DNA of 64,000 nt from Naegleria gruberi (GCA_000004985.1 GG738901.1), one strand, 5' to 3'; positions 23,081-64,000 are shown, counted from the first letter of the stretch. The notes: generated by a model not told the origin, from the letters alone. Made by a program: numbers and translations.

Positions 23081-23154
23081 GCCTTCCTAGCTCAGTTGGC
23101 AGTAGCGCTGTCCTAGTAAGACAGAGGTCTTGGGTTCGATTCCCAAGGGAGGCA
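23081..23154 (+). tRNA. tRNA-Thr (anticodon AGU), copy 1
   Basis: Cloverleaf: acceptor GCCTTCC/GGGAGGC, anticodon stem CTGTC/GACAG with loop CTAGTAA, T-arm TTGGG-TTCGATT-CCCAA. It is followed immediately by a TTTT Pol III terminator. Confidence 0.85.
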
Positions 23155-28806: not shown

Positions 28807-28880
28807 GCCTTCCTAGCTCAGTTGGCAGTAGCGCTGTCCTAGTAAGACAGAGGTCTTGGGTTCGATTCCCAAGGGAGGCA
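28807..28880 (+). tRNA. tRNA-Thr (anticodon AGU), copy 2, identical to copy 1
   Basis: 74 nt, 100% identical to 23081-23154. About 35 bp of upstream flank and 13 bp of downstream flank are conserved, including the TTTT terminator. Confidence 0.85.
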
Positions 28881-44958: not shown

Positions 44959-47187
44959 ATGAGCACACGTATTATTCTAGATCATGAGCTTTGTTTTTCT
45001 CAATCGGAATGGCGTCACCAATTTTACGCTCATCACACTGGTTATCAATTATTGAAAATTAAAAAAGTTTTAGATTGTAAATTTAACATTGAAAAACATC
45101 ATTATTTGGAAAAAGTGTACAGTTTGGATTTTAAAAAGATTGGAAAATTTGTGAAGGAAAATCCTCCACCCGATGAAAATGATGAAGTTTTTATTAAAAA
45201 ATTGGTGCTTCTTAAAGGAAGATTTATTAGATATGCAAGCAATCGATTGAAAGATGACAAGGAGTTTATTTTGGATTTGGTGAAACGAAAACAAGTGGTT
45301 TTTGTGTATGCTTCTGAGAGATTGAGAGCTGATAGACAAGTTTTGGAAATGGCTTTGGATTTGAGTGAATGTGGAAATGATTTATTTACAATTCTTGATA
45401 GGATTGATTTTTCTGATATTCCAAACAAGGGTATTGTGAACTTGTTTAAACATTCTAATCGATTATTCAATTATTGTACTTCTAGTGAGCTCCGTATTGA
45501 TAAAAAATTAAGGAATATGATTAGTTATAAGAATGACAGAGATTTAATCCTGCAATCAGTCAAACATCATGGAAACATACTAAATTACGTAGATAGGATA
45601 TTTTCAGAAGATCCTGAATTGATCTTTGAAGCACTCAAAACATGTCCAAGTATGATCAGTAAACTCCCACCTTCTCACTTGAAGAATACTGATTTTGCAT
45701 TAAGAATGGCTTCTCGATTCACATATTTCTGGTTTCCTTCCTTCTATTTAAATCAAGATGAGGAATTCTGGTATCAGGCAGTTATTGTCCACAAGTTCCT
45801 TGCGATTCAGGATTTGCCTATAAAACCATATCACTACTTGGAGCTAAAGAAAATAGTGCTGTCTAGAAAAGGATTCCTATTAGAATTATTTTCTGACAAG
45901 GACAGGGAGGATATTGAGTTGGTATTGTGTGCAATGCAGATTCCAAAATACTTTAAATTTGCTTCTGAAAGATTGCAAAACTCAGAGCAGTTTGCCTCTT
46001 GCATTTTCTCAATCTATTCATCCAATTCTCTATTTGGTGTGAATTCTTTTCCATATATTATACCAGAGCTCAAAAATAATTTTACATTTATGAAATTGAG
46101 TTGCCTGAAGTTTAACCCGTCTCTGTTCAAACATGCTTCTCCTGAGCTGAGAGGAAATATTGAATTTATCAAGTGTATTATCAATGATTGCTTTTCAAGA
46201 AGTATGAAAGCTAGCTATGTGCGAGAAAATATCATCCTGAACATTATGGGAAGGAAAGAAGACAGAGATGAGCTCATTAAGGTACACAACCATTGCAAGG
46301 CAGAGTATCCCAATCAAAAATTATTATTCTTTGCTAGTCCACTTTTGTTCTTTGACGAAAGTTTTATTAGAAATGAAACTGCTCAATTACTTCCTAAGAA
46401 TGAGGAGTTCTCTATTGAGAAATTGTACGCATCAGCCTTTAAACAAAGAGAGATTATGGTTTGTGCAGCTTGTTCGCTTATTGAACCATCTCTGTATTCT
46501 AATGACCATTATCAATTTTCTTCAACATTCTTTCACTATATGAACGAAAGCCATGTTAAAATTATCTATTATGAGTGCTATTCATGGAAGGATCAATCAA
46601 AGTATGATTCACTTACACAGGAAACCAAAAACAGTATTGACAGCACATTATTTGAAATGACAAGATCCATTTCTTCTTCTTTGGAACATGTTTGTTGGGA
46701 TGATATGTCAGATTCATTACTTTTTTCAGAATTGGAACGATTCTTTTCACAAGGATTCACCTTAGTTGGAGAATATACCAAGAATCTCATTGGAAAGTCA
46801 TTCACAAAAAGATTTGGAAATGATCGAAGCTTTTTCAAAAATTTTATAGTTTCGAATAAGAGAGTGCCCATTCTCCAATATGCTTCTGATGAAATTAAGG
46901 ACGATTTGAGTTTCTTTCTTGCACTTACTTATTTACCATGTTGTATTCAATATGCTTCCGAGAAATTGAGGTCAAATAAGGAATTTGTGAAGAAAGTTGT
47001 AATGAAAGATGATAACATGTTCCAATACGCCTCTGAAACAATCAGAAATGATTATGAATTTGTTTTGGAACTATTAATTGAAAAAAAATATGGACTTGAA
47101 TGTTTCTATCAATTTTCCACACGAGAGGTAAAGATTCAGTTGTTCCAAAATCAACCAGATTTAATGAAGCAAATAAGCCGTATTTAA
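44959..47187 (+). CDS. DUF4116-repeat protein, 742 aa
   Basis: At least 7 repeats of YAS(E/D)xL(R/K)xDxEF(V/I)LxLV, for example YASERLRADRQVLEMAL, YASEKLRSNKEFVKKVV and YASETIRNDYEFVLELL. The ATG lies only 38 bp after the myosin stop. Confidence 0.65.
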   Translation: MSTRIILDHELCFSQSEWRHQFYAHHTGYQLLKIKKVLDCKFNIEKHHYLEKVYSLDFKKIGKFVKENPPPDENDEVFIKKLVLLKGRFIRYASNRLKDDKEFILDLVKRKQVVFVYASERLRADRQVLEMALDLSECGNDLFTILDRIDFSDIPNKGIVNLFKHSNRLFNYCTSSELRIDKKLRNMISYKNDRDLILQSVKHHGNILNYVDRIFSEDPELIFEALKTCPSMISKLPPSHLKNTDFALRMASRFTYFWFPSFYLNQDEEFWYQAVIVHKFLAIQDLPIKPYHYLELKKIVLSRKGFLLELFSDKDREDIELVLCAMQIPKYFKFASERLQNSEQFASCIFSIYSSNSLFGVNSFPYIIPELKNNFTFMKLSCLKFNPSLFKHASPELRGNIEFIKCIINDCFSRSMKASYVRENIILNIMGRKEDRDELIKVHNHCKAEYPNQKLLFFASPLLFFDESFIRNETAQLLPKNEEFSIEKLYASAFKQREIMVCAACSLIEPSLYSNDHYQFSSTFFHYMNESHVKIIYYECYSWKDQSKYDSLTQETKNSIDSTLFEMTRSISSSLEHVCWDDMSDSLLFSELERFFSQGFTLVGEYTKNLIGKSFTKRFGNDRSFFKNFIVSNKRVPILQYASDEIKDDLSFFLALTYLPCCIQYASEKLRSNKEFVKKVVMKDDNMFQYASETIRNDYEFVLELLIEKKYGLECFYQFSTREVKIQLFQNQPDLMKQISRI

Positions 47188-47905: not shown

Positions 47906-49131
47906 ATGTCTTTATTCCTCCTTGGTGTTGTGTCCATTGTAGTTATTGGATTCGTGGTCTATTTGTTCAAGTTTAAGAATCAAATCAAGGGTTATCACTT
48001 GACAAATGAAAATGTGACAGGAACCTATCAAGATTTATTCGCACAAGATACCAAAGATACTCATGATAAGAGAAAGAATGCTGGATGGGATGTTGCTGGT
48101 AAATATTATGATATGGTGACTGATTTTTACTTGTATGGTTGGGGAAGATCTTTCCATTTTGCTCCAAGGTTAGTATTTTTGTAAAGTTTTCACATTTTCT
48201 TACATTTTTTCATATGAATTCAATGAAATGCATGCTTTTCATTATGATACTTGACTGTGTCTTTTTGGAATATTGTGGACATGTGTACAGACACAAGAAG
48301 GAAAGCATGATTGAATCCATTCAAAGACATGAATACTGGTTGGCCAAACAAATGGATCTCAAAAAGGGAATGAAATGTTTAGATCTCGGTTGTGGAGTCA
48401 TGGGTCCAGCCACCAACATTTCTCGTTTCACAGGAGCTCACATCACAGGTGTCAACAATCATCCTTATCAATCTCAACAAGCCAAAGAATACATTTCACA
48501 AATGGGTCTCTCAGAACAATGTCAAATTGTCAGAGGTGATTTCAACAATTTAGATGACAACTCAGATCTCCCATCTGAATCCTACGATGCTGCCTACACA
48601 ATCGAAGCTTCCTGTCATGCCAAAGATCGTCCACATTGTTACAAACAAATTTACAACAAACTCAAACCAGGTGCAATTTTTGCAGGTTACGAATGGGTCA
48701 TGATTTCTGGAAAATATGATTCGAAAAATGAAGAACATAACAAGATTAAATTTGACATTATGAAAGGAGATGGTTTACCAGAAATTCTCATGGATAAGGA
48801 GATTGATGAATCATTGAGAAAGGCAGGATTTGAAGTTATCAAAACTGAAGATGTAGGTGTCACTGATCAAATTCATCCAGTGCCTTGGTATCAACCAATT
48901 GACAATGGTGGTTGGGATTTTACAAGTTGGTTCCAAACTTCATATGGAAGATTTATTGTTCACAAATTGGTTGGAATTTTGGAAAGTGTTGGTTTAGTCC
49001 CAAAATCTTCACAACAAGCTTATGAATTTTTGATGGCTGGAGCTAGTGGATTGGTTGCTGGTGGAAAGACTGGAATTTTTACACCTTGTTATTTCTTTAT
49101 GGCTAGAAAACCATTAACTGCTGCAGAATAA
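47906..49131 (+). CDS. Sterol 24-C-methyltransferase (ERG6/SMT1 family). Two exons: join(47906..48168, 48291..49131)
   Basis: Exon 1 ends ...GWGRSFHFAPR. A 122-nt GTTAGT..ACAG intron follows. Exon 2 continues HKKESMIESIQRHEYWLA...LDLGCGVMGPA...YEWVM, aligning along ERG6 including the SAM-binding motif. Confidence 0.85.
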
Positions 49132-52724: not shown

Positions 52725-53344
52725 ATGGCTATGCAAGGACAAATGTATTCTTCCCAGGCACAACAAGTCTATTACCAATATGATAAAGATCGTAATGGTG
52801 TCCTCAAGAAGAAAGAATTCAAGAAGGCTATGCAAGGTATGTTATTATTGTTCTTTTTCGTGATTGTTGTAACAATGAATCATGTTAATCTTTCATAATA
52901 GCCCTCGGTGCACACAAAGATGAATGTAAACATTTATTCAAGATGGTTGATGTAGACCACAACAAGGTGATTACCATGAATGAATTCTTGAATGCCTATC
53001 TGTTCTTACAGGCAGGTGGTATGAAGTATAAAGGTACTGGATATCATGGAGCTTGTGGTACTGTGGGATCAACAACTACAACCACAACAATGATGGGAGG
53101 TCAACCTGGCATGATGCCTCAACAAGGATATCCACAACAATATCCACCTCAACAAGGTTACCCTCAACAACCTTATGGACAACCAGGTATGGGATATCCT
53201 CAGCAACCATACGGACAACCTGGAATGATGCCACAACAACAACAATATCCACCACAAGGATATCCACAACAATATCCACCTCAACAAGGATACCCTCAAC
53301 AATATCCACCTCAACAAGGAGGTTATCCACCATCATATCAATAA
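52725..53344 (+). CDS. Small calcium-binding protein: two EF-hands followed by a YPQQ/GQPG-repeat tail. Two exons: join(52725..52836, 52902..53344)
   Basis: Exon 1 encodes the EF-loop [13 protein letters not shown] 65-nt GTATGT..ATAG intron follows. Exon 2 encodes the EF-loop [12 protein letters not shown], then poly-Thr, then 8 repeats of YPQQ/PQQGYP. A possible extra 5' exon lies at 52502-52552. Confidence 0.6.
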
Positions 53345-53923
53345 GTCTTTCTAGAATTAATACTGTAAATAAAGTATTAACTAATCAACAGTAATACCAT
53401 TTTACAATCAAACGAAGTTTATCCGATAGGTCGACTGAATTTCAACTTCAGGTTGGTTCTTAGTTTCAGTTTGTGATTTTTCAATTTCAATGATTTTACA
53501 AAACATCAAATCAGAATGTTAAATTACAACAGAGAAAAGATCGCAATGAATATTAACAATTGGATAGTCCTCTCTATTTCAGAGATATAATATTATTCTA
53601 AACCTAAGATACTTTCGTATTGTGTTAAGAATACAAATTATTTTCACAGCTCTTGAGTTCTTCTATGAAATGGTAGTCCCTCACAACAGTTTCATTAATA
53701 TTCCAAAGATCATACTACGTCACTTTTCAAATTCCATATCATTAAAAAATGTCAAAACAACTCTTTGATGATGATCGTGTCATTTTCGAAGAGAGTACAC
53801 AACAATTACCAATTACCAAAAAGCAAGTTGATGATGAAAATTTCAATCTTAACAGAGTTGAATATTGTGAAAATTCCGACACCAATCAATGCGAAGAATA
53901 CACTTATCTAGACGAAAAGGAAA

Positions 53924-55858
53924 TTGAAAAGGATTTACTGTTCTATTTGTTATTTACCACTGATTGATCCGATCATGCACTCTTTGTGTGAAAATATGTT
54001 TTGTTCTGGTTGTGCAAGGAAGATTGTTGATAATAGATGTCCACTTTGTAGAGCTGATAAGTTACTTGAAAATTGTTCATCTGTTCCAAAGTATATTACC
54101 AACAAGTTACATCAGCTGAAAGTGAAATGTTCAATGTGTAAGGGAGCAGTGGAGAGAGGTCAATTGAAGGATCATGAGGAAAAGCATTGTCCTCTTCATG
54201 AAGCTTATAAACAAGTTGATGAATTGAAAAATAGATTAGAGGAAGAATTCAAGAAGAAGAATGAATCTCAACAAATCCAAAATGAAAATATCTTGAGCAT
54301 AGAAAAGCAAAATTTAAAGAAAATTAAACTAGACCTTATCAAACAATACCAATTAAAAGAAGAAGCATTAGAGAAGAGGGTTAAAGAATTTGAAAATCAA
54401 CAATTGGTCAGATTAAAACTGGAGGCCAGTAACAAACCAATTTATCTCAATGTTGGTGGAACTATCATGACAGTCTCATTAGGAACATTTATTCACAACG
54501 AAAGAGAACCTGATAATTTATTCAAGAAAATGTTCACTGCTGAATATCCATTGTATCAAACATCAAATCAATTCAATGAGCCAGTATACTTTATTGATTG
54601 TGATTTGTTCATTTTCAAGCATATTCTTGATTGGTTAAAGTATGGAATATTAGACAGGGAGATAAATGTAGATTTGAGGAAATTATTGATTATATCTCAA
54701 TCTTTTGGAATTGATTTGAGGAGAGTTATTGTACAACATGTTAACTTGGCAGGAAAGGAAATTATTGGATTTGATTTTCGTGGAATGAACTTGGTTGATG
54801 TAAATTTCAAGGCAAGTTATTTTAAGGATTGTCATTTTTCAAATGTGGCAATTGGCTCTCAATTTAAAAAGGCACAATTTGAAAGTGTAACATTTGAAAA
54901 GTGTACAATTCAAATGCATTTTAAAAATAATAATTTGAAGAATTGCAAATGTATTGAATGTGAATTTAATGGATCTGTTTTTGAAAAAGCTAATTTCAAA
55001 TTAATTGAACTTGTTCTCACAACAAATAATTCATTTAATTGCTTAATTAAGAATACTGATTTAAGAGAAATGAGAGATTTATCAAAATTCAAAGGATTTA
55101 AATTTGATTCATGTTTATTTGATTTTTCTAAACTTTCAAACAAACAAATTAATTCTATCATGTTTGAAAATATTAATCTGGATGCACAAGATTTATCCAC
55201 CTTCATTTTTATTAATAGCACATTTGCACATACATCTTTCGCACATGTTAAACTGGATTCTAATTTTGGTATTGGACTTTCGAATATTATTAATAATTAT
55301 GGAAGTTTTGTATCAATTCCTCTATATATGCAAACTAAAAGTAAATCTATTCCTCAATTATTATACAGAGGAACAAGAGATGGATTCCATGCAAATGATT
55401 TTCATTCCAAATGTGATAATCAAGGCGCAACATTGACCATTATCAAATCAGAACATAATCAAGTATTTGGTGCTTTTACTAGTCAATCTTGGAAATCAAA
55501 CAAAGATAATTTCAACTTTGTTATGGACGATTCAGCATTTATTTTCAAAATTGTAACAGATCATAATGGAAATTATCAAGTTCAACACTTTAACATTAAC
55601 CAAAATAAGAAACAATATGCGATTGAAGCACATCATAAGTATTTGGTAATATTTGGAGGAACTACTGAGATTGAAGGGGATATATGTATATACAGTGATT
55701 GCAATTTGAATAATGCTTCATACTCGAACTTTGGATTGACATATGAATTACCCACAGGATACAATTATGGAACTGATGAAGCTAAAAGTTATTTGGCAGG
55801 ATGTTACACATTTAAAGTTATTGAAATTGAAGTTTTTAAAATTAATCCCTGGGAATAA
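53924..55858 (+). CDS. Multidomain protein: RING-type zinc finger, TRAF-type zinc finger, coiled-coil, BTB/T1 (KCTD-like), pentapeptide repeats, and a TLDc domain. The N-terminus is probably in ORF 53749-53967, in another frame
   Basis: The Cys/His spacing fits a RING (CSICYLPLIDPIMHSLCENMFCSGC...CPLC). The BTB/T1 segment is IYLNVGGTIMTVSLGTFIHNEREPDNLFKKMF. Pentapeptide-like repeats run from 54720 to 55260. TLDc signature: LLYRGTRDGFHANDFHSKCDNQGATLTIIKSEHNQVFGAFTSQSW. This frame opens just after a stop and has no ATG before the RING. Confidence 0.6.
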   Translation: MKRIYCSICYLPLIDPIMHSLCENMFCSGCARKIVDNRCPLCRADKLLENCSSVPKYITNKLHQLKVKCSMCKGAVERGQLKDHEEKHCPLHEAYKQVDELKNRLEEEFKKKNESQQIQNENILSIEKQNLKKIKLDLIKQYQLKEEALEKRVKEFENQQLVRLKLEASNKPIYLNVGGTIMTVSLGTFIHNEREPDNLFKKMFTAEYPLYQTSNQFNEPVYFIDCDLFIFKHILDWLKYGILDREINVDLRKLLIISQSFGIDLRRVIVQHVNLAGKEIIGFDFRGMNLVDVNFKASYFKDCHFSNVAIGSQFKKAQFESVTFEKCTIQMHFKNNNLKNCKCIECEFNGSVFEKANFKLIELVLTTNNSFNCLIKNTDLREMRDLSKFKGFKFDSCLFDFSKLSNKQINSIMFENINLDAQDLSTFIFINSTFAHTSFAHVKLDSNFGIGLSNIINNYGSFVSIPLYMQTKSKSIPQLLYRGTRDGFHANDFHSKCDNQGATLTIIKSEHNQVFGAFTSQSWKSNKDNFNFVMDDSAFIFKIVTDHNGNYQVQHFNINQNKKQYAIEAHHKYLVIFGGTTEIEGDICIYSDCNLNNASYSNFGLTYELPTGYNYGTDEAKSYLAGCYTFKVIEIEVFKINPWE

Positions 55859-57985
55859 CAATAATTTATCCAACAATACACCAATAAATTCGGAAATTAT
55901 GAGCTTTATTCTACTACACGCACCTAATAGAATATTTTCAACACTGAACAACCACAAAAACCAATTTCTACTAATCTATTATCCTTGAAATACTAGCAAA
56001 CCGAATAATGGTTGAAAAACTTGAAAATATTTATCCAAATAAAACAATAAAGAATTTCATTGATAAACCAATGGGTTAGTCTAGAGAAAATAGAGTGTTA
56101 GTGAAGTTCTTGCCAGCTAGGCCTTCAGATCTAAGGTCTTGTACCGACCATTAGATGGGTTTGGGTTTGGGAACCTCGGATACCTCTTACTCCAATCTCT
56201 TATTGATTTAAGATTTTGAAATTGTTTATTATTGAATTTTTATAAAGAGTGTTGATACGAATCAGAAGCTTCTTATTGTGACAACACTTGATAGAAGAAT
56301 GGGAAAGTGGCTGCATTAATTCAACATTTTGAAAGTGAACAAGGTTCTCATCTCAAGATTTGGAACTCTTCTTCATTAAGAGGAGGTTATAGGGTGGTGA
56401 CTAGAGAGAAACATTTCCTTGTAGCTTTTCTACTAAAATGATTAATTGACCAAGATCTTGACCTATAATATGGAAACACAATAAAATTCAATAATACTGA
56501 TAAATACAGTAGTAAATCTGAATGGTAATCATAAATCACTGAAAAAATCATGATTGGATCCATTTTGAGACTTTTGGAAGTCAACTTGGATGGCAATAGG
56601 GGAGCTTTCGATGTGGTTAACTTTTAAATGGATATGAATATTTTATTGGATAATATATGTCATCGCTGTACTTTATCACTAAATGTTGAACATCATGATG
56701 TTATAATCTATATTTCCAATTTGGGAAATGTTGTAATGTCAATGTTTAATTGAAATATTGCCATCATACCAATAATTGATTTTATACTACAAAACTGGTA
56801 TTATACACTATAATTGATATATATATGAATATATGATTGAAATATTTCAATTTTAACATTTATTAATGACGTGGGTTGTTCACTAAGGTAGTAACTTTGT
56901 CATATGATAACTATCTAAGATTATATTGAAATCATTCCAAAATTGATTCTATGACAGTATTTGATGATTATAACATGATAATATTGAATTGGTATTCATT
57001 CTTACCATTCATGACATGTAAGAATGTTACCTTTTTGTCAATTGCGACAGTAGATTGACAGATATTCCAATTATATAGATATTGATTTCTATCACTCAGA
57101 AACGTTATCAATATCAGTTATAAGAGTAGTGGTATGATATTCTATCTTGTTGTACATCTTGATATTGACTTGTCATATTATCATGAGTAGTTAGTGACAT
57201 GGTTAAATGACATGAATACTGAATGATGTCCAAATGATTTGAAATTGATAGGAACCTCATTATATGATGTTAATAACATATTGTATCAATTTGGTATTGA
57301 ATCTCATTGTCCTTAGGGTACTTCCCTATTGAGGAACCTTAATTGACCTTCTCTATATTTAAATTGAGATGTGATATTTATTTCAATTGTATCATCATTT
57401 TGTAAATGATGGATAAGTAGCCAAGTTGTGTATGGTGTAGAATTGGTATAACATTATTTTCAACATTTACAAGTGCCATTTCTCATCATCTGTTGGACCA
57501 AAACAAAAAATTTTGTTATAGTGGTGGTTTTTTTTACTAATATCCACATGTACAATATAGGAACAAGGAGATGCTTTATAGTTGTGCAGAATCATTCCAC
57601 CAACAATTAGTTTTTGAAATATTCTTTTCTTAGTGAACTTTGCTTACATCATTTTTATTAAGGAATTGTTTCAAGTAGATGGAAAGTGTTCTAAAATTGC
57701 TGTAGATGGTAACATTCCGTTACAGCATAGTTAAATTCTAAGAAATGATTGAGATTTGTGATTTTTTCACAACTGCTATCTTTTAAACAATGTTTGTCAT
57801 CCAACCCGATGTAAAAACTTTTTGAAATTGTTTCAAATGAGCTTGGAGTGGCTCAAACCCGTTGCTTCTTTTCAAAAAAGTTCCTGATCGAGCAATGTGA
57901 TGAGGCTGTAATATACTATTCAACAAAGTAAATTGTTTGCAATCTTACTGAACTTTGAATATTTCAAAATTATTAAGGAATTTTT

Positions 57986-58035
57986 NNNNNNNNNNNNNNN
58001 NNNNNNNNNNNNNNNNNNNNNNNNNNNNNNNNNNN
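57986..58035. other. Assembly gap (50 N)
   Basis: Run of n characters. Confidence 1.
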
Positions 58036-59169
58036 TTCAAATGTTGCACAGAGTCCTTATTTTTTTTTTGCTAGTAAGTTCGTTTATTTAAACATAGTTG
58101 TTTGGTAAAGTTGCTGGTTGATGTATGTGGTTGCATCTTTCTATCCACATTGCGTGAGTGAATTTAATTATTTCTATTTGGATTTCTTGTGCTTTATCCC
58201 AGGCCTCTAATGTTTGGTAGACTTCTTTGGGAAGTATTCCAATATAAATGGTTGAATATTTAGGGATAGTGTTGGATTTCAAGTGGGTTACTAGTATTTT
58301 TCTGATTGTTTCTAAAGGTTTTTTGGTTATTTGTTGGATATTGTCTTCTAGGCTTCTCCATAATCTTTCACGAAGATATTCAGTTTTTTTGCAGTTAAAA
58401 ATGGCGTGTTGAGTGTTCTCCTCTTCCTTGCAATCTCTTATAGGGCATCCATTACCTGGTGTAAAGATGTTGTTTGTTGGGAGACTGTTAAAAGCAGCTC
58501 TAGTGGCAATGTTGATTTGGTTTTTTGTGATGGTTTTGTTTTTAGGGATTATTCTAGATTTTCTAATCTTGCTAAATGCATTTAGGTTTGCTTTCGCTAC
58601 TTCTTCTTTAAATATTTCCGAGTATAGAATTGTATCTATTTTGTCATAGATTATTTTCTCATTAAAAGTAAAAAGGTATCTGTCTAACTCTTGAGCTGGG
58701 GGGATTGCTTTGGTCTTGTTTCTATTCTTGCGTCCTCTATTTGCTTCTATGTCAGCTTCATTATTGAGTTGAATTAAGACTTTTTCCTCATGGGTCATCT
58801 GTTGTGTTTCCACTTGGTGGGATTTAATGTGTCTTAGGGTAATCCTTTGCTTCTCTTTCCTGATGGCTTTCACATAGGGGTTATTCGTCTTTCTATCTCC
58901 TTCAATAATTTTAATACTTGCCATCGAATCTGTAAGAATTTGGATATTTCCTTTTGTCATTTTGCATGCTATATAGATTGCTTGAATTTCACAGTCAAAC
59001 GACGATGCTGCTGCGAAGGCATTCATATTGATTTTTTCTCCTTTTTCGGTGACTATACCAATTCCTCCTTCATTGTCTTTGAAGGATCCGTCTGTAGCAA
59101 TTATCATGTTCTCTTCTTCCATCAAAGAACCCATCTCTATATCTTTGGCTTTGGAAGGGCTTTTTTAAT
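58036..59169 (-). mobile_element. 3' portion of a non-LTR (LINE) retrotransposon: RNase H domain, CCHC zinc knuckle, a short 3' UTR with an A10 tract. It is truncated by a gap on its 5' side
   Basis: The minus-strand ORF 58088-59169 carries RNase H motifs (IIATDGS, FDCEIQAIYIA, ILTDSMASIK) followed by CPIRDCx7Hx4C. The frame stays open into the gap. A poly-A tract (plus-strand T10 at 58059-58069) lies 20 nt after the stop. Confidence 0.8.
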
Positions 59170-61733
59170 NNNNNNNNNNNNNNNNNNNNNNNNNNNNNNN
59201 NNNNNNNNNNNNNNNNNNNNNNNNNNNNNNNNNNNNNNNNNNNNNNNNNNNNNNNNNNNNNNNNNNNNNNNNNNNNNNNNNNNNNNNNNNNNNNNNNNNN
59301 NNNNNNNNNNNNNNNNNNNNNNNNNNNNNNNNNNNNNNNNNNNNNNNNNNNNNNNNNNNNNNNNNNNNNNNNNNNNNNNNNNNNNNNNNNNNNNNNNNNN
59401 NNNNNNNNNNNNNNNNNNNNNNNNNNNNNNNNNNNNNNNNNNNNNNNNNNNNNNNNNNNNNNNNNNNNNNNNNNNNNNNNNNNNNNNNNNNNNNNNNNNN
59501 NNNNNNNNNNNNNNNNNNNNNNNNNNNNNNNNNNNNNNNNNNNNNNNNNNNNNNNNNNNNNNNNNNNNNNNNNNNNNNNNNNNNNNNNNNNNNNNNNNNN
59601 NNNNNNNNNNNNNNNNNNNNNNNNNNNNNNNNNNNNNNNNNNNNNNNNNNNNNNNNNNNNNNNNNNNNNNNNNNNNNNNNNNNNNNNNNNNNNNNNNNNN
59701 NNNNNNNNNNNNNNNNNNNNNNNNNNNNNNNNNNNNNNNNNNNNNNNNNNNNNNNNNNNNNNNNNNNNNNNNNNNNNNNNNNNNNNNNNNNNNNNNNNNN
59801 NNNNNNNNNNNNNNNNNNNNNNNNNNNNNNNNNNNNNNNNNNNNNNNNNNNNNNNNNNNNNNNNNNNNNNNNNNNNNNNNNNNNNNNNNNNNNNNNNNNN
59901 NNNNNNNNNNNNNNNNNNNNNNNNNNNNNNNNNNNNNNNNNNNNNNNNNNNNNNNNNNNNNNNNNNNNNNNNNNNNNNNNNNNNNNNNNNNNNNNNNNNN
60001 NNNNNNNNNNNNNNNNNNNNNNNNNNNNNNNNNNNNNNNNNNNNNNNNNNNNNNNNNNNNNNNNNNNNNNNNNNNNNNNNNNNNNNNNNNNNNNNNNNNN
60101 NNNNNNNNNNNNNNNNNNNNNNNNNNNNNNNNNNNNNNNNNNNNNNNNNNNNNNNNNNNNNNNNNNNNNNNNNNNNNNNNNNNNNNNNNNNNNNNNNNNN
60201 NNNNNNNNNNNNNNNNNNNNNNNNNNNNNNNNNNNNNNNNNNNNNNNNNNNNNNNNNNNNNNNNNNNNNNNNNNNNNNNNNNNNNNNNNNNNNNNNNNNN
60301 NNNNNNNNNNNNNNNNNNNNNNNNNNNNNNNNNNNNNNNNNNNNNNNNNNNNNNNNNNNNNNNNNNNNNNNNNNNNNNNNNNNNNNNNNNNNNNNNNNNN
60401 NNNNNNNNNNNNNNNNNNNNNNNNNNNNNNNNNNNNNNNNNNNNNNNNNNNNNNNNNNNNNNNNNNNNNNNNNNNNNNNNNNNNNNNNNNNNNNNNNNNN
60501 NNNNNNNNNNNNNNNNNNNNNNNNNNNNNNNNNNNNNNNNNNNNNNNNNNNNNNNNNNNNNNNNNNNNNNNNNNNNNNNNNNNNNNNNNNNNNNNNNNNN
60601 NNNNNNNNNNNNNNNNNNNNNNNNNNNNNNNNNNNNNNNNNNNNNNNNNNNNNNNNNNNNNNNNNNNNNNNNNNNNNNNNNNNNNNNNNNNNNNNNNNNN
60701 NNNNNNNNNNNNNNNNNNNNNNNNNNNNNNNNNNNNNNNNNNNNNNNNNNNNNNNNNNNNNNNNNNNNNNNNNNNNNNNNNNNNNNNNNNNNNNNNNNNN
60801 NNNNNNNNNNNNNNNNNNNNNNNNNNNNNNNNNNNNNNNNNNNNNNNNNNNNNNNNNNNNNNNNNNNNNNNNNNNNNNNNNNNNNNNNNNNNNNNNNNNN
60901 NNNNNNNNNNNNNNNNNNNNNNNNNNNNNNNNNNNNNNNNNNNNNNNNNNNNNNNNNNNNNNNNNNNNNNNNNNNNNNNNNNNNNNNNNNNNNNNNNNNN
61001 NNNNNNNNNNNNNNNNNNNNNNNNNNNNNNNNNNNNNNNNNNNNNNNNNNNNNNNNNNNNNNNNNNNNNNNNNNNNNNNNNNNNNNNNNNNNNNNNNNNN
61101 NNNNNNNNNNNNNNNNNNNNNNNNNNNNNNNNNNNNNNNNNNNNNNNNNNNNNNNNNNNNNNNNNNNNNNNNNNNNNNNNNNNNNNNNNNNNNNNNNNNN
61201 NNNNNNNNNNNNNNNNNNNNNNNNNNNNNNNNNNNNNNNNNNNNNNNNNNNNNNNNNNNNNNNNNNNNNNNNNNNNNNNNNNNNNNNNNNNNNNNNNNNN
61301 NNNNNNNNNNNNNNNNNNNNNNNNNNNNNNNNNNNNNNNNNNNNNNNNNNNNNNNNNNNNNNNNNNNNNNNNNNNNNNNNNNNNNNNNNNNNNNNNNNNN
61401 NNNNNNNNNNNNNNNNNNNNNNNNNNNNNNNNNNNNNNNNNNNNNNNNNNNNNNNNNNNNNNNNNNNNNNNNNNNNNNNNNNNNNNNNNNNNNNNNNNNN
61501 NNNNNNNNNNNNNNNNNNNNNNNNNNNNNNNNNNNNNNNNNNNNNNNNNNNNNNNNNNNNNNNNNNNNNNNNNNNNNNNNNNNNNNNNNNNNNNNNNNNN
61601 NNNNNNNNNNNNNNNNNNNNNNNNNNNNNNNNNNNNNNNNNNNNNNNNNNNNNNNNNNNNNNNNNNNNNNNNNNNNNNNNNNNNNNNNNNNNNNNNNNNN
61701 NNNNNNNNNNNNNNNNNNNNNNNNNNNNNNNNN
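59170..61733. other. Assembly gap (2564 N); it presumably hides the RT and upstream part of the LINE
   Basis: Run of n characters. The flanking ORFs 'X...X' are artifacts. Confidence 1.
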
Positions 61734-62507: not shown

Positions 62508-62591
62508 TTTTTAGGCTTGGGTTTTTAGGCTTGGGTTTTTAGGCTTGGGTTTTTAGGCTTGGGTTTTTAGGCTTGGGTTTTTAGGCTTGGG
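62508..62591 (+). repeat. Six tandem copies of a 14-bp telomere-associated variant repeat, TTTTTAGGCTTGGG
   Basis: Direct reading shows six exact units. They sit immediately proximal to the canonical TTTGGG array. Confidence 0.9.
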
Positions 62592-62897
62592 TTTGGGTTT
62601 GGGTTTGGGTTTGGGTTTGGGTTTGGGTTTGGGTTTGGGTTTGGGTTTGGGTTTGGGTTTGGGTTTGGGTTTGGGTTTGGGTTTGGGTTTGGGTTTGGGT
62701 TTGGGTTTGGGTTTGGGTTTGGGTTTGGGTTTGGGTTTGGGTTTGGGTTTGGGTTTGGGTTTGGGTTTGGGTTTGGGTTTGGGTTTGGGTTTGGGTTTGG
62801 GTTTGGGTTTGGGTTTGGGTTTGGGTTTGGGTTTGGGTTTGGGTTTGGGTTTGGGTTTGGGTTTGGGTTTGGGTTTGGGTTTGGGTTTGGGTTTGGG
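62592..62897 (+). repeat. Telomeric repeat array (TTTGGG)n, internal block of about 51 units
   Basis: A perfect hexamer array ending at a 50-N gap. The G-rich strand runs 5'->3' toward the window end. Confidence 0.9.
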
Positions 62898-62947
62898 NNN
62901 NNNNNNNNNNNNNNNNNNNNNNNNNNNNNNNNNNNNNNNNNNNNNNN
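62898..62947. other. Assembly gap (50 N)
   Basis: Run of n characters. Confidence 1.
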
Positions 62948-63420
62948 GGAATTATATCTGAGTTGATTATTTTGATGGCTTGCTCTATTGTGAAGAACCA
63001 AGTTTTGATATTTCCTAGTTTTGCTTTGACTCTCTCAATCGCTTGAGTAGTTCTTTGTTTCCCTACTTGATCTTCAAAGTCCCCTAATTTTCTTATCCAA
63101 GGTTTTGTTTCAATCTTGGTTTCTCCAATTAGGATGTGTTTTTTATCACTGTTTGTGAAGTATTCAGTCTTCTTTTCATTCAATTCCATTCCATATTTTG
63201 CTAGTATGTTGTTATTGAATCTGTTCCATAGTGCAATCAATCTCTCTTGTGTATTTGCTATGAAGTCAGTGTCGTCCATGTTTGCTGAGTTGTTAATTGT
63301 AAATCCTATACTATCATATTTCATTTTGTAGTCGAAGCCTTCTAGATCAAACAATTGTTGAAGGATAAAATCTAGTGCGAGGACGAAAATTAATGGGGAT
63401 AGTGAATCTCCTTGTTTGAC
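62948..63420 (-). mobile_element. 5'-truncated non-LTR retrotransposon reverse-transcriptase fragment (RT motifs 4-7) abutting telomeric repeats
   Basis: The minus-strand translation [20 protein letters not shown]...[11 protein letters not shown]...KKTEYF...KLGDFE matches LINE RT motifs B', C (xMDD) and D/E. Its 5' end joins (CCCAAA)n with a 2-nt junction at 63420/63423. Confidence 0.8.
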
Positions 63421-63422
63421 AC

Positions 63423-64000
63423 TTGGGTTTGGGTTTGGGTTTGGGTTTGGGTTTGGGTTTGGGTTTGGGTTTGGGTTTGGGTTTGGGTTTGGGTTTGGGT
63501 TTGGGTTTGGGTTTGGGTTTGGGTTTGGGTTTGGGTTTGGGTTTGGGTTTGGGTTTGGGTTTGGGTTTGGGTTTGGGTTTGGGTTTGGGTTTGGGTTTGG
63601 GTTTGGGTTTGGGTTTGGGTTTGGGTTTGGGTTTGGGTTTGGGTTTGGGTTTGGGTTTGGGTTTGGGTTTGGGTTTGGGGGGGGGTTTGGGTTTGGGTTT
63701 GGGTGGTTTGGGTTTGGGTTTGGGTTTGGGTTTGGGTTTGGGTTTGGGTTTGGGTTTGGGTTTGGGTTTGGGTTTGGGTTTGGGTTTGGGTTTGGGTTTG
63801 GGTTTGGGTTTGGGTTTGGGTTTGGGTTTGGGTTTGGGTTTGGGTTGGGTTTGGGTTTGGGTTTGGGTTTGGGTTTGGGTTTGGGTTTGGGTTTGGGTTT
63901 GGGCCCGGGTTTGGGTTTGGGTTTGGGTTTGGGTTTGGGTTTGGGTTTGGGTTTGGGTTTGGGTTTGGGTTTGGGTTGGGTTTGGGTTTGGGTTTGGGTC
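63423..64000 (+). repeat. Terminal telomeric repeat array (TTTGGG)n of about 96 units, with a few degenerate units, running to the window end
   Basis: Hexamer array with variant units near 63676, 63703, 63845 and 63901. This is consistent with a chromosome terminus. Confidence 0.9.

What the first reader, a model, noticed from the sequence alone, without database searches (positions are those of the whole stretch)
53749..55858. A RING-TRAF-BTB(T1)-pentapeptide-TLDc gene has its N-terminus in a different frame, pointing to a frameshift or sequencing indel
The RING-containing frame opens directly after a TAG at 53909-53911 and has no ATG before the first Cys pair.

An ATG-initiated ORF at 53749-53967 (MSKQLFDDDRVIFEE..., acidic) overlaps it in the -1 frame and ends at 53967. 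No AT-rich intron fits between them. A single-base indel in the A-runs around 53914-53930 would fuse them.

The call is either an assembly error, which would be useful for judging assembly quality, or a genuine pseudogene or programmed frameshift.

The domain combination is itself unusual. KCTD9-like BTB plus pentapeptide repeats is known. Adding an N-terminal RING/TRAF E3 module and a C-terminal TLDc domain is not something I recognise.
Basis: partly seen in the sequence, partly recalled or inferred. Interest (0 to 1): 0.5.

Follow-up and report, generated by a model that had tools for sequence, protein, structure and literature searches.

The report
Frameshifted subtelomeric Naegleria RING–BTB–TLDc gene
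An unannotated copy of an amoeba-specific (Naegleria) putative ubiquitin-ligase gene, about 7 kb from a chromosome end, is intact except for one small indel just before its RING finger, which is either a very young inactivating mutation or a draft-assembly error: an ordinary finding.

Summary
The window is Naegleria gruberi and ends in (TTGGGT)n telomere arrays.

- **The two frames.** The ATG ORF at 53749-53967 and the long ORF at 53912-55858 are two halves of one gene.
  - Frame A, up to Leu 53935-37, is homologous to the N-terminus of paralogue P0005. It carries the pre-RING motif Y-x-Y…[IV][DE]..L-x-C, shared by the family and by LNX1/LNX2.
  - Frame B takes over at the first RING Cys (53939).
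- **The lesion.** Only base 53938 is left of the spacer codon. This points to a 2-nt deletion, or less likely a 1-nt insertion.
- **Alternatives rejected.** No GT-AG intron rescues the gene, and there is no frameshift-stimulating structure. ATG 53975 lies inside the RING, so starting there removes two zinc ligands.
- **State of the gene.** The other ~640 codons are open. They keep 133 of 142 family-invariant residues, so the lesion is very recent or artefactual. Reads are needed to decide; I lean slightly toward a real mutation.
- **Architecture.** LNX/TRAF6-like RING plus zinc finger, coiled coil, KCTD9-like BTB, pentapeptide β-helix, TLDc. It is an uncharacterised family found in Naegleria and Willaertia, and is not unique to this locus.

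The parts
53749..53937 (+). N-terminal coding segment in frame A (Met1-Leu63). It is acidic and ends in the pre-RING motif EYTYLDEKEIEKDL.
   Evidence: ORF list. tblastn of P0005 aa 1-70, 39-41% identity, with the start MSK conserved. Family and LNX2 motif alignment.
53938..53938 (+). Lesion site. A single C is all that remains of the one-residue spacer codon between the invariant Leu (-2) and the first RING Cys. The inferred change is a 2-nt deletion, for example CTG TGT to CTGT, or ATC to C.
   Evidence: Frame arithmetic. All 6 homologues, and LNX1/2, have L-x-C here.
53939..55858 (+). Main coding segment in frame B, from the first RING Cys to stop TAA 55856-58 (639 codons plus the stop). 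It is collinear with the N. gruberi paralogues to their C-termini.
   Evidence: 133 of 142 otherwise-invariant family columns are kept.
53965..53967 (+). Premature TGA that ends frame A, after 9 non-homologous codons (LFYLLFTTD).
53909..53911 (+). TAG that closes frame B upstream of the RING.
53975..53977 (+). First ATG in frame B. It lies inside the RING, between ligands C2 and the invariant His. It is 8 nt after the frame-A stop. The annotated paralogue P0002 starts at the equivalent Met.
53939..54049 (+). RING finger, C-x2-C-x9-H-x2-C-x4-C-x2-C-x8-C-x2-C. The canonical fourth-ligand His is replaced by Asn, and an invariant His sits three residues before ligand C3.
   Evidence: Sub-threshold Pfam RING hits. 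phmmer against PDB: LNX2, TRIM21, BARD1, RAG1, TRAF6. Family profile against LNX2, E 7.3e-17. Invariant columns.
54128..54190 (+). C2HC zinc finger (C-x2-C-x11-H-x4-C) following the RING. It corresponds to the C-terminal zinc finger of the LNX2 Zn-RING-Zn domain and to TRAF6 ZF1.
   Evidence: Alignments. LNX2 paper PMC4741457. No Pfam zf-TRAF hit.
54197..54430 (+). Long predicted helix (coiled-coil linker).
   Evidence: AF2 model, helix at residues 96-173, pLDDT about 70-82.
54440..54685 (+). BTB/T1 (KCTD-type) domain.
   Evidence: Pfam BTB_2, 24.4 bits against a 21.4 cut-off. KCTD9 BTB 5bxh is the best BTB match among solved structures, E 1.3e-4.
54728..55228 (+). Pentapeptide-repeat β-helix, the shortest in the family.
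   Evidence: Pfam Pentapeptide and Pentapeptide_4. AF2 β-rungs at residues 273-439. Foldseek and phmmer hits to AlbG, MfpA and QnrB1.
55304..55843 (+). TLDc domain.
   Evidence: Pfam TLD, E 1.1e-22, 81 bits. Foldseek hits to NCOA7, TBC1D24, OXR2 and mEAK7 TLDc, E about 2e-6, TM (target) 0.62-0.69.

Best explanation
**What the locus is.** This is an unannotated paralogue of a Heterolobosea-specific multigene family. The family encodes putative oligomeric RING E3 ligases with this architecture: LNX/TRAF6-like RING plus C2HC zinc finger, coiled coil, KCTD9-like BTB, pentapeptide β-helix, TLDc. The gene lies about 6.7 kb from the telomere repeats of a Naegleria gruberi chromosome end.

**What is wrong with it.** Its reading frame is broken once, at base 53938. 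The one-residue spacer codon between the invariant Leu and the first RING Cys has been reduced to a single base. The most likely change is a 2-nt deletion, for example loss of one TG from CTG-TGT.

**Consequence as written.** Translation from ATG 53749 ends after 72 codons. Any product started at ATG 53975 would lack two zinc ligands of the RING.

**Age and cause.** Everything else in the gene is intact and conserved, so the lesion is extremely young. I judge a genuine recent mutation somewhat more likely than a consensus error in the draft assembly. That mutation could be a young subtelomeric pseudogene or a null allele captured from a heterozygous genome.

**Shown versus inferred.**
- Shown: that the two frames form one gene, the position of the lesion, the absence of an intron or recoding signal, and family membership.
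- Inferred: deletion rather than insertion, real rather than artefact, and all biochemistry (E3 activity, BTB oligomerisation, a TLDc-mediated partner such as V-ATPase).

**Confidence.** About 0.9 for a single indel at 53938 in an otherwise intact family member. About 0.55 for the lesion being real in the organism; the confidence field gives this lower figure.
For: **Source organism and location**
- ORF 5531-7615 is identical to NAEGRDRAFT_59331.
- (TTGGGT)n arrays run from 62587, and there are assembly gaps at 57987-58036, 59171-61733 and 62899-62948.

**One gene in two frames**
- P0005 aa 1-70 matches frame A and aa 62-523 matches frame B.
- The start MSK and the motif [DE]Y.YLDE..IEKDL are conserved.

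**Position and type of the lesion**
- L-x-C before the RING is invariant in all six homologues with N-termini, from N. gruberi, N. fowleri and Willaertia.
- It is also present in LNX2 and LNX1, which the family profile hits at E 7e-17 and 3e-13 across the pre-RING motif.
- Only a 2-nt gain at 53938 restores it.

**Not an intron**
- Of 21 GT-AG joins that keep an open frame, none keeps both the motif and the eight zinc ligands, and none has a GTAWGT donor.
- The neighbouring gene has a clean 65-nt GTATGT...TAATAG intron.

**Not recoding**
- The region downstream of the site folds no better than shuffled sequence: z = +0.96.

**A young lesion**
- Frame B has no other stop in 648 codons.
- The gene keeps 93.7% of columns that are invariant in the other members, as good as the annotated paralogues at 69-98%.

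**Leaning toward a real mutation**
- A 2-nt loss in a non-homopolymer context is atypical of base-calling error.
- Subtelomeric location.
- Most N. gruberi family models are fragmentary (P0002, P0004, P0005, P0007, P0033, P0034). This is consistent with birth-and-death turnover.
- Naegleria is described as mainly a heterozygous diploid (PMC9928731).
Against: **No read-level evidence**
- No reads, traces, transcripts or second assembly could be reached. A metagenome scan for either allele found nothing.

**Points favouring an assembly error**
- The gene is an old paralogue, only about 50% identical to its nearest relatives, yet still fully conserved. The chance of catching it just after inactivation is small. 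A consensus error would explain a single lesion in a perfect gene equally well.
- The locus lies in the last ~10 kb of a gapped scaffold end. The terminal repeats there show obvious base-calling glitches (GGGGGGG, GGGCCC).

**A 1-nt insertion is not excluded**
- An extra G in AAGGAT would give ...EKIYCSIC, which keeps a hydrophobic residue at -2.

**The fragmentary paralogue models** may reflect poor gene calling rather than decay.
Confidence: 0.55

Rival explanations
1. Assembly or base-calling error. The organism's gene is intact (about 704 aa, MSKQ...EKDL-x-CSIC...), and the draft consensus dropped two bases, or gained one, at 53938.
For: - There is a single lesion in an otherwise flawless, conserved 2.1-kb gene.
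- The gene is 2.1 kb from the first of three assembly gaps, at a scaffold end where the telomere repeats carry evident sequencing glitches.
- The locus has no model in the public N. gruberi protein set, although its 644-aa ORF has E 1e-170 paralogues.
Against: - The context is not a homopolymer.
- The change that best restores the invariant L-x-C spacing is 2 nt, which is unusual for a consensus error.
- The rest of the gene shows no sign of poor sequence.
Confidence: 0.35
2. A functional RING-less or RING-crippled isoform. The gene is now expressed from ATG 53975, with the 72-codon frame-A ORF acting as an overlapping upstream ORF that ends 8 nt before that ATG. The protein acts through its zinc finger, coiled coil, BTB, pentapeptide and TLDc parts only.
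For: - The annotated paralogue P0002 (NAEGRDRAFT_80657) starts at exactly the homologous Met.
- A RING-less relative exists: P0006, whose contig shows no RING exon in the 365 nt upstream and whose BTB is preceded by a hydrophobic N-terminus.
- The downstream ORF is fully conserved.
Against: - Starting at 53975 leaves six of the eight RING ligands as an unfoldable stub.
- From general knowledge of eukaryotic translation, reinitiation after a 72-codon ORF is inefficient.
- The frame-A segment and its start codon are still conserved with P0005, which is not expected if it had long been a mere uORF (0.2% of shuffles stay open).
- The P0002 start may simply be a truncated gene model.
Confidence: 0.06
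3. Programmed +1 (or -2) ribosomal frameshifting, or another recoding event, joins frame A to frame B near 53938.
For: Only the geometry supports this. The two frames overlap by 56 nt (53912-53967) and both halves are conserved.
Against: - There is no slippery heptamer, rare-codon or stop-codon pause at TTA-CTG-T.
- Frame A continues for 9 more sense codons.
- There is no stable downstream structure: z = +0.96, and 166 of 200 shuffles fold at least as well.
- Paralogues P0001, P0003, P0005, P0033 and the N. fowleri and Willaertia homologues read straight through this motif in one frame.
Confidence: 0.02
4. A short or non-canonical spliceosomal intron restores the frame.
For: Three GT...AG intervals ending at the TAG 53909-11 (133, 85 and 55 nt) would join the frames while keeping the RING.
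Against: - All three delete the conserved [DE]Y.YLDE..IEKDL motif and replace it with basic TKRKLKRIY.
- Their donors are GTCATT, GTTGAT and GTTGAA. The local genuine intron has GTATGT...TAATAG.
- The joins that keep the motif delete RING ligands.
- To keep both, an intron would have to be 1 nt long.
Confidence: 0.02

Closest known systems
N. gruberi paralogues NAEGRDRAFT models P0001 (927 aa), P0003 (710 aa), P0002 (NAEGRDRAFT_80657) and P0005; N. fowleri FDP41_001763 (1099 aa)
   Same: - Collinear architecture: RING, C2HC zinc finger, coiled coil, BTB_2, pentapeptide repeats, TLDc.
- 48-55% identity over aligned columns.
- Same pre-RING motif, same unusual RING ligand pattern, and same C-terminal ...EIEVFKI ending.
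   Different: - This copy has the shortest pentapeptide region and lacks the BTB-to-β-helix linker.
- It is frameshifted at 53938.
- It has no gene model in the public protein set.
- None of the family has been studied experimentally; all are named 'predicted protein' or 'TLDc domain-containing protein'.
LNX1/LNX2 Zn-RING-Zn domain (PDB 5din, 5h7r); more distantly TRAF6 RING-ZF1, RAG1 RING-ZFA, SIAH1
   Same: - The family N-terminal profile hits LNX2 at E 7.3e-17 and LNX1 at 2.6e-13 over about 97 positions.
- The match covers the Y-x-Y...D-D-L-x-C lead-in, the RING and the following C2HC zinc finger.
- TRAF6 scores E 3e-5.
- The LNX2 paper names TRAF6 as the closest structural homologue of its RING plus C-terminal zinc finger (PMC4741457).
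   Different: - There is no LNX N-terminal C2H2 'open-circle' zinc finger: no conserved Cys or His lies upstream of the Y-x-Y motif.
- There are no PDZ domains, and no TRAF-C/MATH domain.
- The canonical fourth ligand His is Asn, Gln or Tyr throughout the family, with an invariant His three residues before C3 instead.
KCTD9 (KHA-BTB-pentapeptide CUL3 adaptor)
   Same: - A T1-type BTB directly followed by a pentapeptide-repeat β-helix.
- KCTD9 BTB (5bxh) is the best BTB match among solved structures, E 1.3e-4.
- KCTD9 is described as a KCTD member with a pentapeptide-repeat domain (PMC6019787).
   Different: - No KHA domain was detected.
- This protein has its own RING E3 module at the N-terminus and a TLDc domain at the C-terminus.
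- CUL3 binding is untested.
TLDc proteins OXR1, NCOA7, TBC1D24, mEAK7 (TLDC1), and yeast Oxr1p and Rtc5p
   Same: - The C-terminal domain is a clear TLDc: Pfam 81 bits, and Foldseek hits to NCOA7, TBC1D24 and OXR2 TLDc and to mEAK7 and NCOA7 bound to V-ATPase.
- In animals and yeast, TLDc domains bind V-ATPase and regulate its assembly (PMC8608904, PMC8804929).
   Different: - 17-19% identity only.
- Whether the V-ATPase-contacting surface is kept was not tested.
- None of the characterised TLDc proteins carries RING, BTB or pentapeptide modules.

Membership tests
Heterolobosean RING-ZnF-CC-BTB-pentapeptide-TLDc family (N. gruberi P0001/P0003 type) | Collinear full-length similarity to the family members. 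| tested here: met
   E 1e-165 to 1e-177 to N. gruberi members, with 97-99% query coverage for P0002 and P0003. tblastn and alignment.
Heterolobosean RING-ZnF-CC-BTB-pentapeptide-TLDc family (N. gruberi P0001/P0003 type) | Pre-RING motif Y-x-Y...[IV][DE]..L-x-C and eight invariant zinc-ligand positions in the RING. | tested here: met
   Both are present, but split between frame A (motif up to Leu 53935-37) and frame B (Cys from 53939).
Heterolobosean RING-ZnF-CC-BTB-pentapeptide-TLDc family (N. gruberi P0001/P0003 type) | A single uninterrupted reading frame from the start codon to the TLDc domain. | tested here: not met
   There is a frame break at 53938. Frame A stops at 53965-67.
RING-type E3 ligase (C3HC4 RING-HC) | Sequence or profile similarity to solved RING domains. 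| tested here: met
   Family profile against LNX2 E 7e-17, TRIM21 4e-12, RING2/BMI1 3e-10, BARD1 3e-8. For the single sequence, Pfam RING models are below their cut-offs.
RING-type E3 ligase (C3HC4 RING-HC) | Canonical ligand pattern C-x2-C-x(9-39)-C-x(1-3)-H-x(2-3)-C-x2-C-x(4-48)-C-x2-C. | tested here: not met
   The fourth-ligand position is Asn here, and Asn, Gln or Tyr in all homologues. An invariant His lies three residues before C3, giving C-x2-C-x9-H-x2-C-x4-C-x2-C-x8-C-x2-C.
RING-type E3 ligase (C3HC4 RING-HC) | E2-dependent ubiquitin transfer. | not testable with these tools
   This needs an in vitro ubiquitination assay.
TRAF family / TRAF-type zinc finger (Pfam PF02176) | A match to the zf-TRAF model. 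| tested here: not met
   No zf-TRAF hit at E <= 0.1 in this protein or in five paralogues.
TRAF family / TRAF-type zinc finger (Pfam PF02176) | A C2HC zinc finger immediately after the RING, as in TRAF6 RING-ZF1. | tested here: met
   C-x2-C-x11-H-x4-C at 54128-54190 aligns with the C-terminal zinc finger of LNX2 and falls within the TRAF6 match (residues 17-104, E 3e-5).
TRAF family / TRAF-type zinc finger (Pfam PF02176) | A C-terminal TRAF-C/MATH domain. | tested here: not met
   No MATH hit. The C-terminus is BTB, pentapeptide and TLDc.
KCTD9-like proteins | A T1-type BTB (Pfam BTB_2) followed by pentapeptide repeats. | tested here: met
   BTB_2 24.4 bits against 21.4; Pentapeptide 25.3 bits against 20.2. 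KCTD9 BTB E 1.3e-4. β-helix fold hits.
KCTD9-like proteins | An N-terminal KHA domain. | tested here: not met
   No such Pfam hit. The N-terminus is a RING, a zinc finger and a coiled coil.
TLDc proteins | A TLDc domain by sequence and by fold. | tested here: met
   Pfam TLD E 1.1e-22. Foldseek hits to NCOA7, TBC1D24 and OXR2, E about 2e-6, TM (target) 0.62-0.69.
TLDc proteins | Binding to V-ATPase. | not testable with these tools
   Known for animal and yeast TLDc proteins (PMC8608904, PMC8804929). Here it is only an inference.
Programmed ribosomal frameshift site | A shift-prone site with a pause signal and/or a stimulatory RNA structure, conserved in relatives. | tested here: not met
   There is no slippery or pause motif at TTA-CTG-T. 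Folding z = +0.96. Homologues are in a single frame.
Spliceosomal intron | A GT-AG interval whose removal restores a frame that keeps the conserved residues. | tested here: not met
   21 candidates were enumerated and none qualifies. For comparison, the neighbouring gene has a GTATGT...TAATAG 65-nt intron.

The most novel reading that the evidence does not exclude
The family, of which this locus is one recently broken copy, may be a Heterolobosea-specific class of self-contained, oligomeric E3 ubiquitin ligases. In this reading a non-canonical LNX/TRAF6-like RING-zinc-finger module is targeted to V-ATPase, or to another TLDc client, by a KCTD9-like BTB-pentapeptide scaffold and a TLDc domain. 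That would be a direct link between ubiquitination and TLDc-mediated V-ATPase regulation, which has not been described in any organism. A much less likely novel reading is that the frame break itself is a conserved recoding site.
Probability: 0.12. Interest if true: 0.55.

Novelty: new member of a known kind. Interest (0 to 1): 0.27.

Why it matters
**For this locus**
- It flags an unannotated, single-lesion gene in the N. gruberi reference.
- It is a cheap test case for consensus quality at a gapped subtelomeric scaffold end.
- If the lesion is real, it is an example of very recent gene inactivation, or a segregating null allele, in a subtelomeric multigene family.

**For the family**
- It combines four modules that are each well studied elsewhere: an LNX/TRAF6-type RING plus zinc finger, a KCTD9-type BTB with pentapeptide repeats, and TLDc.
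- I found no description of this order. No paper in the searched library contains TLDc, pentapeptide and BTB together.
- It could give people who study TLDc proteins and V-ATPase a natural fusion that hints at a ubiquitin connection.

None of this is surprising enough to rank highly without experiments.

Tried and rejected
**Led nowhere**
1. Fetching N. gruberi DNA for the paralogues, to see whether they carry the same break. P0002 was the main target, because its model starts at the equivalent Met. The look-up of encoding contigs returned nothing for P0002, P0003, P0005 or for window ORFs, including the one that exactly matches NAEGRDRAFT_59331.
2. Exact look-up of ten window ORFs. Only one is in the collection. 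That identified the species but gave no model for this locus.
3. A metagenome scan for either allele, using the pattern with N{0,4} at the lesion: 0 hits.
4. The N. gruberi genome paper (PMID 20211133) is not held. Statements about its Sanger draft nature therefore rest on my own knowledge.
5. The AF2 model of the 648-aa frame-B product is mediocre: pLDDT 65, pTM 0.33, with the BTB region below 50. I used it only for the coiled coil, the β-helix and TLDc.

**Considered and rejected**
2. *Intron rescue*.
3. *Programmed frameshift*.
4. *A +1 shift at the TGA stop (GAT TGA T).* It would skip the first Cys pair.
5. *Repeat-mediated rearrangement.* Only chance-level 14-17-nt repeats occur in 53600-56200.
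6. *A second family copy in the window.* There is none.
Full report
**Source and setting**

The window is gene-dense, about 34% GC, and carries eukaryote-style split ORFs. One ORF (5531-7615) is identical to Naegleria gruberi NAEGRDRAFT_59331, so the window is N. gruberi.

Its right end is a chromosome end:
- a 14-nt repeat (TTTTTAGGCTTGGG x6, 62508-62594);
- two (TTGGGT)n arrays (62587-62897 and 63423-63999);
- three runs of N (57987-58036, 59171-61733, 62899-62948).

The gene in the finding is therefore subtelomeric. Its stop codon is 2.1 kb from the first assembly gap and about 6.7 kb from the telomere repeats.

Frame B opens after TAG 53909-11 and reads TKRKLKRIYCSIC... with no ATG before the first Cys pair. 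It stays open for 648 codons to TAA 55856-58. An ATG ORF (53749-53967, 72 aa) overlaps it one base out of register.

Across 53749-55858 frame B has 2 stops, against 90 and 45 in the other frames. Frame A stays open in 0.2% of shuffles.

**The two ORFs are one gene**

The 644-aa ORF has strong paralogues in N. gruberi (P0001-P0005, P0007; E 1e-74 to 1e-177; 39-51% identity). No identical or near-identical protein exists in 5.8 billion clusters, so this locus has no public gene model.

tblastn of P0005 against the window gives two collinear hits:
- aa 1-70 in frame A (53749-53955, 41% identity);
- aa 62-523 in frame B.

The start (MSKQ against MSKE), an EES motif, VEYCENS against VEYHENS, and above all EYTYLDEKEIEKDL against DYIYLDENNIEKDL all lie in frame A. 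CSICYLPLIDPIMHSLCENMFCSGC against CSLCYHPFIDPIMHSTCENMFCSSC lies in frame B.

**Where the lesion is**

Frame A codons GAT (53932-34) and TTA (53935-37) give the conserved D-L. Frame B's first Cys is TGT 53939-41. Only base 53938 (C) lies between them.

Every homologue with an N-terminus has exactly one residue there, preceded by an invariant Leu. These are N. gruberi P0001, P0003, P0005 and P0033, N. fowleri FDP41_001763 and Willaertia magna ABK040_001432.

A profile of the family N-terminus hits the solved LNX2 and LNX1 Zn-RING-Zn domains at E 7.3e-17 and 2.6e-13. The alignment starts at the Y-x-Y motif and includes LNX's DDDL-V/I-C. This is evidence from outside the family that the frame-A residues belong to the RING module.

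The simplest repair is therefore two extra bases at 53938. Examples are CTG TGT to CTGT by loss of one TG, or ATC to C. A 1-nt insertion is possible but gives poorer fits:
- D-L-C or D-Y-C loses the hydrophobic residue at -2;
- an extra G in AAGGAT gives EK-IYC, which requires the exact D-L match to be a coincidence.

**Not an intron, not recoding**

I enumerated all GT...AG intervals that join frame A to frame B with an open frame, and found 21.
- The three that keep the RING delete the conserved pre-RING motif. Their donors are GTCATT, GTTGAT and GTTGAA.
- Those that keep the motif delete RING ligands.

The neighbouring EF-hand gene shows what a local intron looks like: 52837-52901, 65 nt, GTATGT...TAATAG. 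That intron is inferred from frame continuity.

The RNA downstream of the site folds no better than shuffled sequence (z = +0.96). There is no slippery or pause motif. Frame A runs on through 9 non-homologous codons before its stop, and a +1 shift at that stop would skip the first Cys pair. Repeats in the region are chance-level.

**State of the rest of the gene**

In a leave-one-out test I took columns where at least four other family members are identical. This gene agrees at 133 of 142 such columns (93.7%). The annotated members score 69-98%.

The gene is about equally distant (48-55% over aligned columns) from all its N. gruberi paralogues. It is therefore an old, constrained paralogue with exactly one lesion. 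The lesion is either very young or not real.

**ATG 53975**

This Met is residue 22 of frame B. It lies after RING ligands C1 and C2 and immediately before the invariant His. A product starting there has a crippled RING.

The annotated paralogue P0002 begins at the equivalent Met (MHSECGQMFC). I could not obtain its DNA to see why.

A RING-less relative does exist. P0006, from a public run assembly, has only 365 nt upstream with no RING, zinc-finger or coiled-coil coding.

**Real mutation or assembly error?**

This cannot be settled with these tools.

For an error:
- a single lesion in a perfect gene;
- a gapped scaffold end with visible base-calling glitches in the terminal repeats.

For a real lesion:
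- a non-homopolymer context and a probable 2-nt change;
- a subtelomeric multigene family whose other models are mostly fragmentary;
- a genus described as mainly heterozygous diploid (PMC9928731), so a null allele could have been captured.

I put it at roughly 0.55 real, 0.35 error and 0.1 everything else.

**What the protein is**

Window coordinates are given in the parts list.
- **RING (53939-54049).** All eight ligand positions are invariant in the family, but the pattern is non-canonical. The fourth-ligand His is Asn, Gln or Tyr, and an invariant His lies three residues before C3.
- **C2HC zinc finger (54128-54190).** It aligns with the C-terminal zinc finger of LNX2 and with TRAF6 ZF1 (PMC4741457). 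There is no Pfam zf-TRAF hit and no MATH domain.
- **Helix of about 78 residues**.
- **T1-type BTB.** Pfam BTB_2 is above its cut-off, and KCTD9 is the best BTB match among solved structures.
- **Short pentapeptide β-helix**.
- **TLDc domain.** Pfam 81 bits, with Foldseek hits to NCOA7, TBC1D24, OXR2 and mEAK7.

**How it probably works**

This part is inferred, not shown. By analogy with LNX and TRAF6, the RING-zinc-finger module recruits an E2. The coiled coil and the BTB domain oligomerise the protein. The β-helix and TLDc domains provide the binding surface.

In animals and yeast, TLDc domains bind V-ATPase and regulate its assembly (PMC8608904, PMC8804929). A V-ATPase-directed ligase is therefore a reasonable guess, but it is untested.

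**How unusual the architecture is**

An exhaustive HMMER scan found 8,598 relatives at E <= 1e-3, almost all matching only the TLDc domain.

The full architecture recurs in:
- N. gruberi, in several models;
- N. fowleri FDP41_001763 (1099 aa);
- Willaertia magna ABK040_001432, in a modified form (RING, zinc finger, coiled coil, 2x BTB, partial TLDc).

Other TLDc combinations turned up as well: RING-kinase-5xTLDc in Anaeramoeba ignava, BTB_2-2xTLDc, and proteins with 7-8 TLDc repeats.

No paper in the searched library contains TLDc, pentapeptide and BTB together. The family is thus real, lineage-restricted and uncharacterised, but already present in public protein sets.

**Verdict**

This is a correctly spotted frame break, relocated to 53938, in a new and unannotated member of a known but unstudied heterolobosean gene family. 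It is either a very young null lesion or a draft-consensus error. It is of modest interest.

Noticed in passing
window 62508-64000: The window ends in a chromosome end: a 14-nt repeat TTTTTAGGCTTGGG x6, then (TTGGGT)n at 62587-62897, an N gap, and a second (TTGGGT)n array at 63423-63999. The second array contains base-calling glitches (GGGGGGG, GGGCCC). The telomere unit here is TTTGGG or its permutation.
   Followed up: partly
window 62949-63420 (minus strand) and 58088-59134 (minus strand): A 5'-truncated reverse-transcriptase-like fragment (...NMDD..., ...GMELNEKKT...) sits between the two telomere arrays and abuts the distal one directly. An RNase H ORF (Pfam PF00075, E 1.5e-8) lies next to the 2.56-kb N gap. 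Together they suggest a telomere-associated non-LTR retroelement, or alternatively a scaffolding chimera.
   Followed up: partly
window 56157-56171: A short interstitial telomere-like tract, GGGTTTGGGTTTGGG, lies 300 nt downstream of the gene's stop codon.
   Followed up: no
window 53939-54049 and alignment A3: The family RING is non-canonical. The usual fourth ligand His is Asn, Gln or Tyr in all seven sequences, while a His three residues (five in P0001) before ligand C3 is invariant. This suggests a relocated zinc ligand, giving a C2-H-C5 pattern.
   Followed up: partly
proteins P0002, P0004, P0005, P0007, P0033, P0034 (N. gruberi): Most annotated N. gruberi members of the family are partial. 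P0002 starts at the Met inside the RING, the same Met as window 53975. P0004 starts inside the BTB domain. P0005 lacks TLDc. P0033 is a 277-aa N-terminal piece. P0007 is 98% identical to P0004 but sits on a 7.5-kb contig. The cause is either systematic mis-modelling or widespread decay and haplotigs.
   Followed up: partly
window 52725-53344: The upstream neighbour is an EF-hand-like gene with a clean 65-nt intron (52837-52901, GTATGT...TAATAG). It has a C-terminal low-complexity ([10 protein letters not shown])n tail, encoded by 15- and 30-nt tandem repeats at 53117-53320.
   Followed up: partly
L001 (Logan SRR12418004 contig, 4341 bp), gene 366-1862: This is a RING-less relative (P0006, 41-45% identity). 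A hydrophobic N-terminal segment directly precedes the BTB domain, followed by pentapeptide repeats and TLDc. It shares with the window gene the absence of the BTB-to-β-helix linker. The source organism is unknown; the contig is 33% GC.
   Followed up: partly
proteins P0030, P0032, P0042, P0043: Other unusual TLDc architectures appear among the hits: 7-8 tandem TLDc domains in metagenome proteins, RING-protein kinase-5xTLDc in Anaeramoeba ignava (M0811_02672), and BTB_2-2xTLDc.
   Followed up: no
window 23081-23154 and 28807-28880; 1876-1948: There are two copies of tRNA-Thr(AGT) 5.7 kb apart on the + strand, and a tRNA-Lys(TTT) on the - strand.
   Followed up: no
window 48139-49131 and 44959-47187: Neighbouring genes include a sterol C-methyltransferase (Sterol_MT_C, E 3e-25; the ORF starts at TTG, so an upstream exon is likely) and a 742-aa protein with nine DUF4116 repeats.
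   Followed up: no
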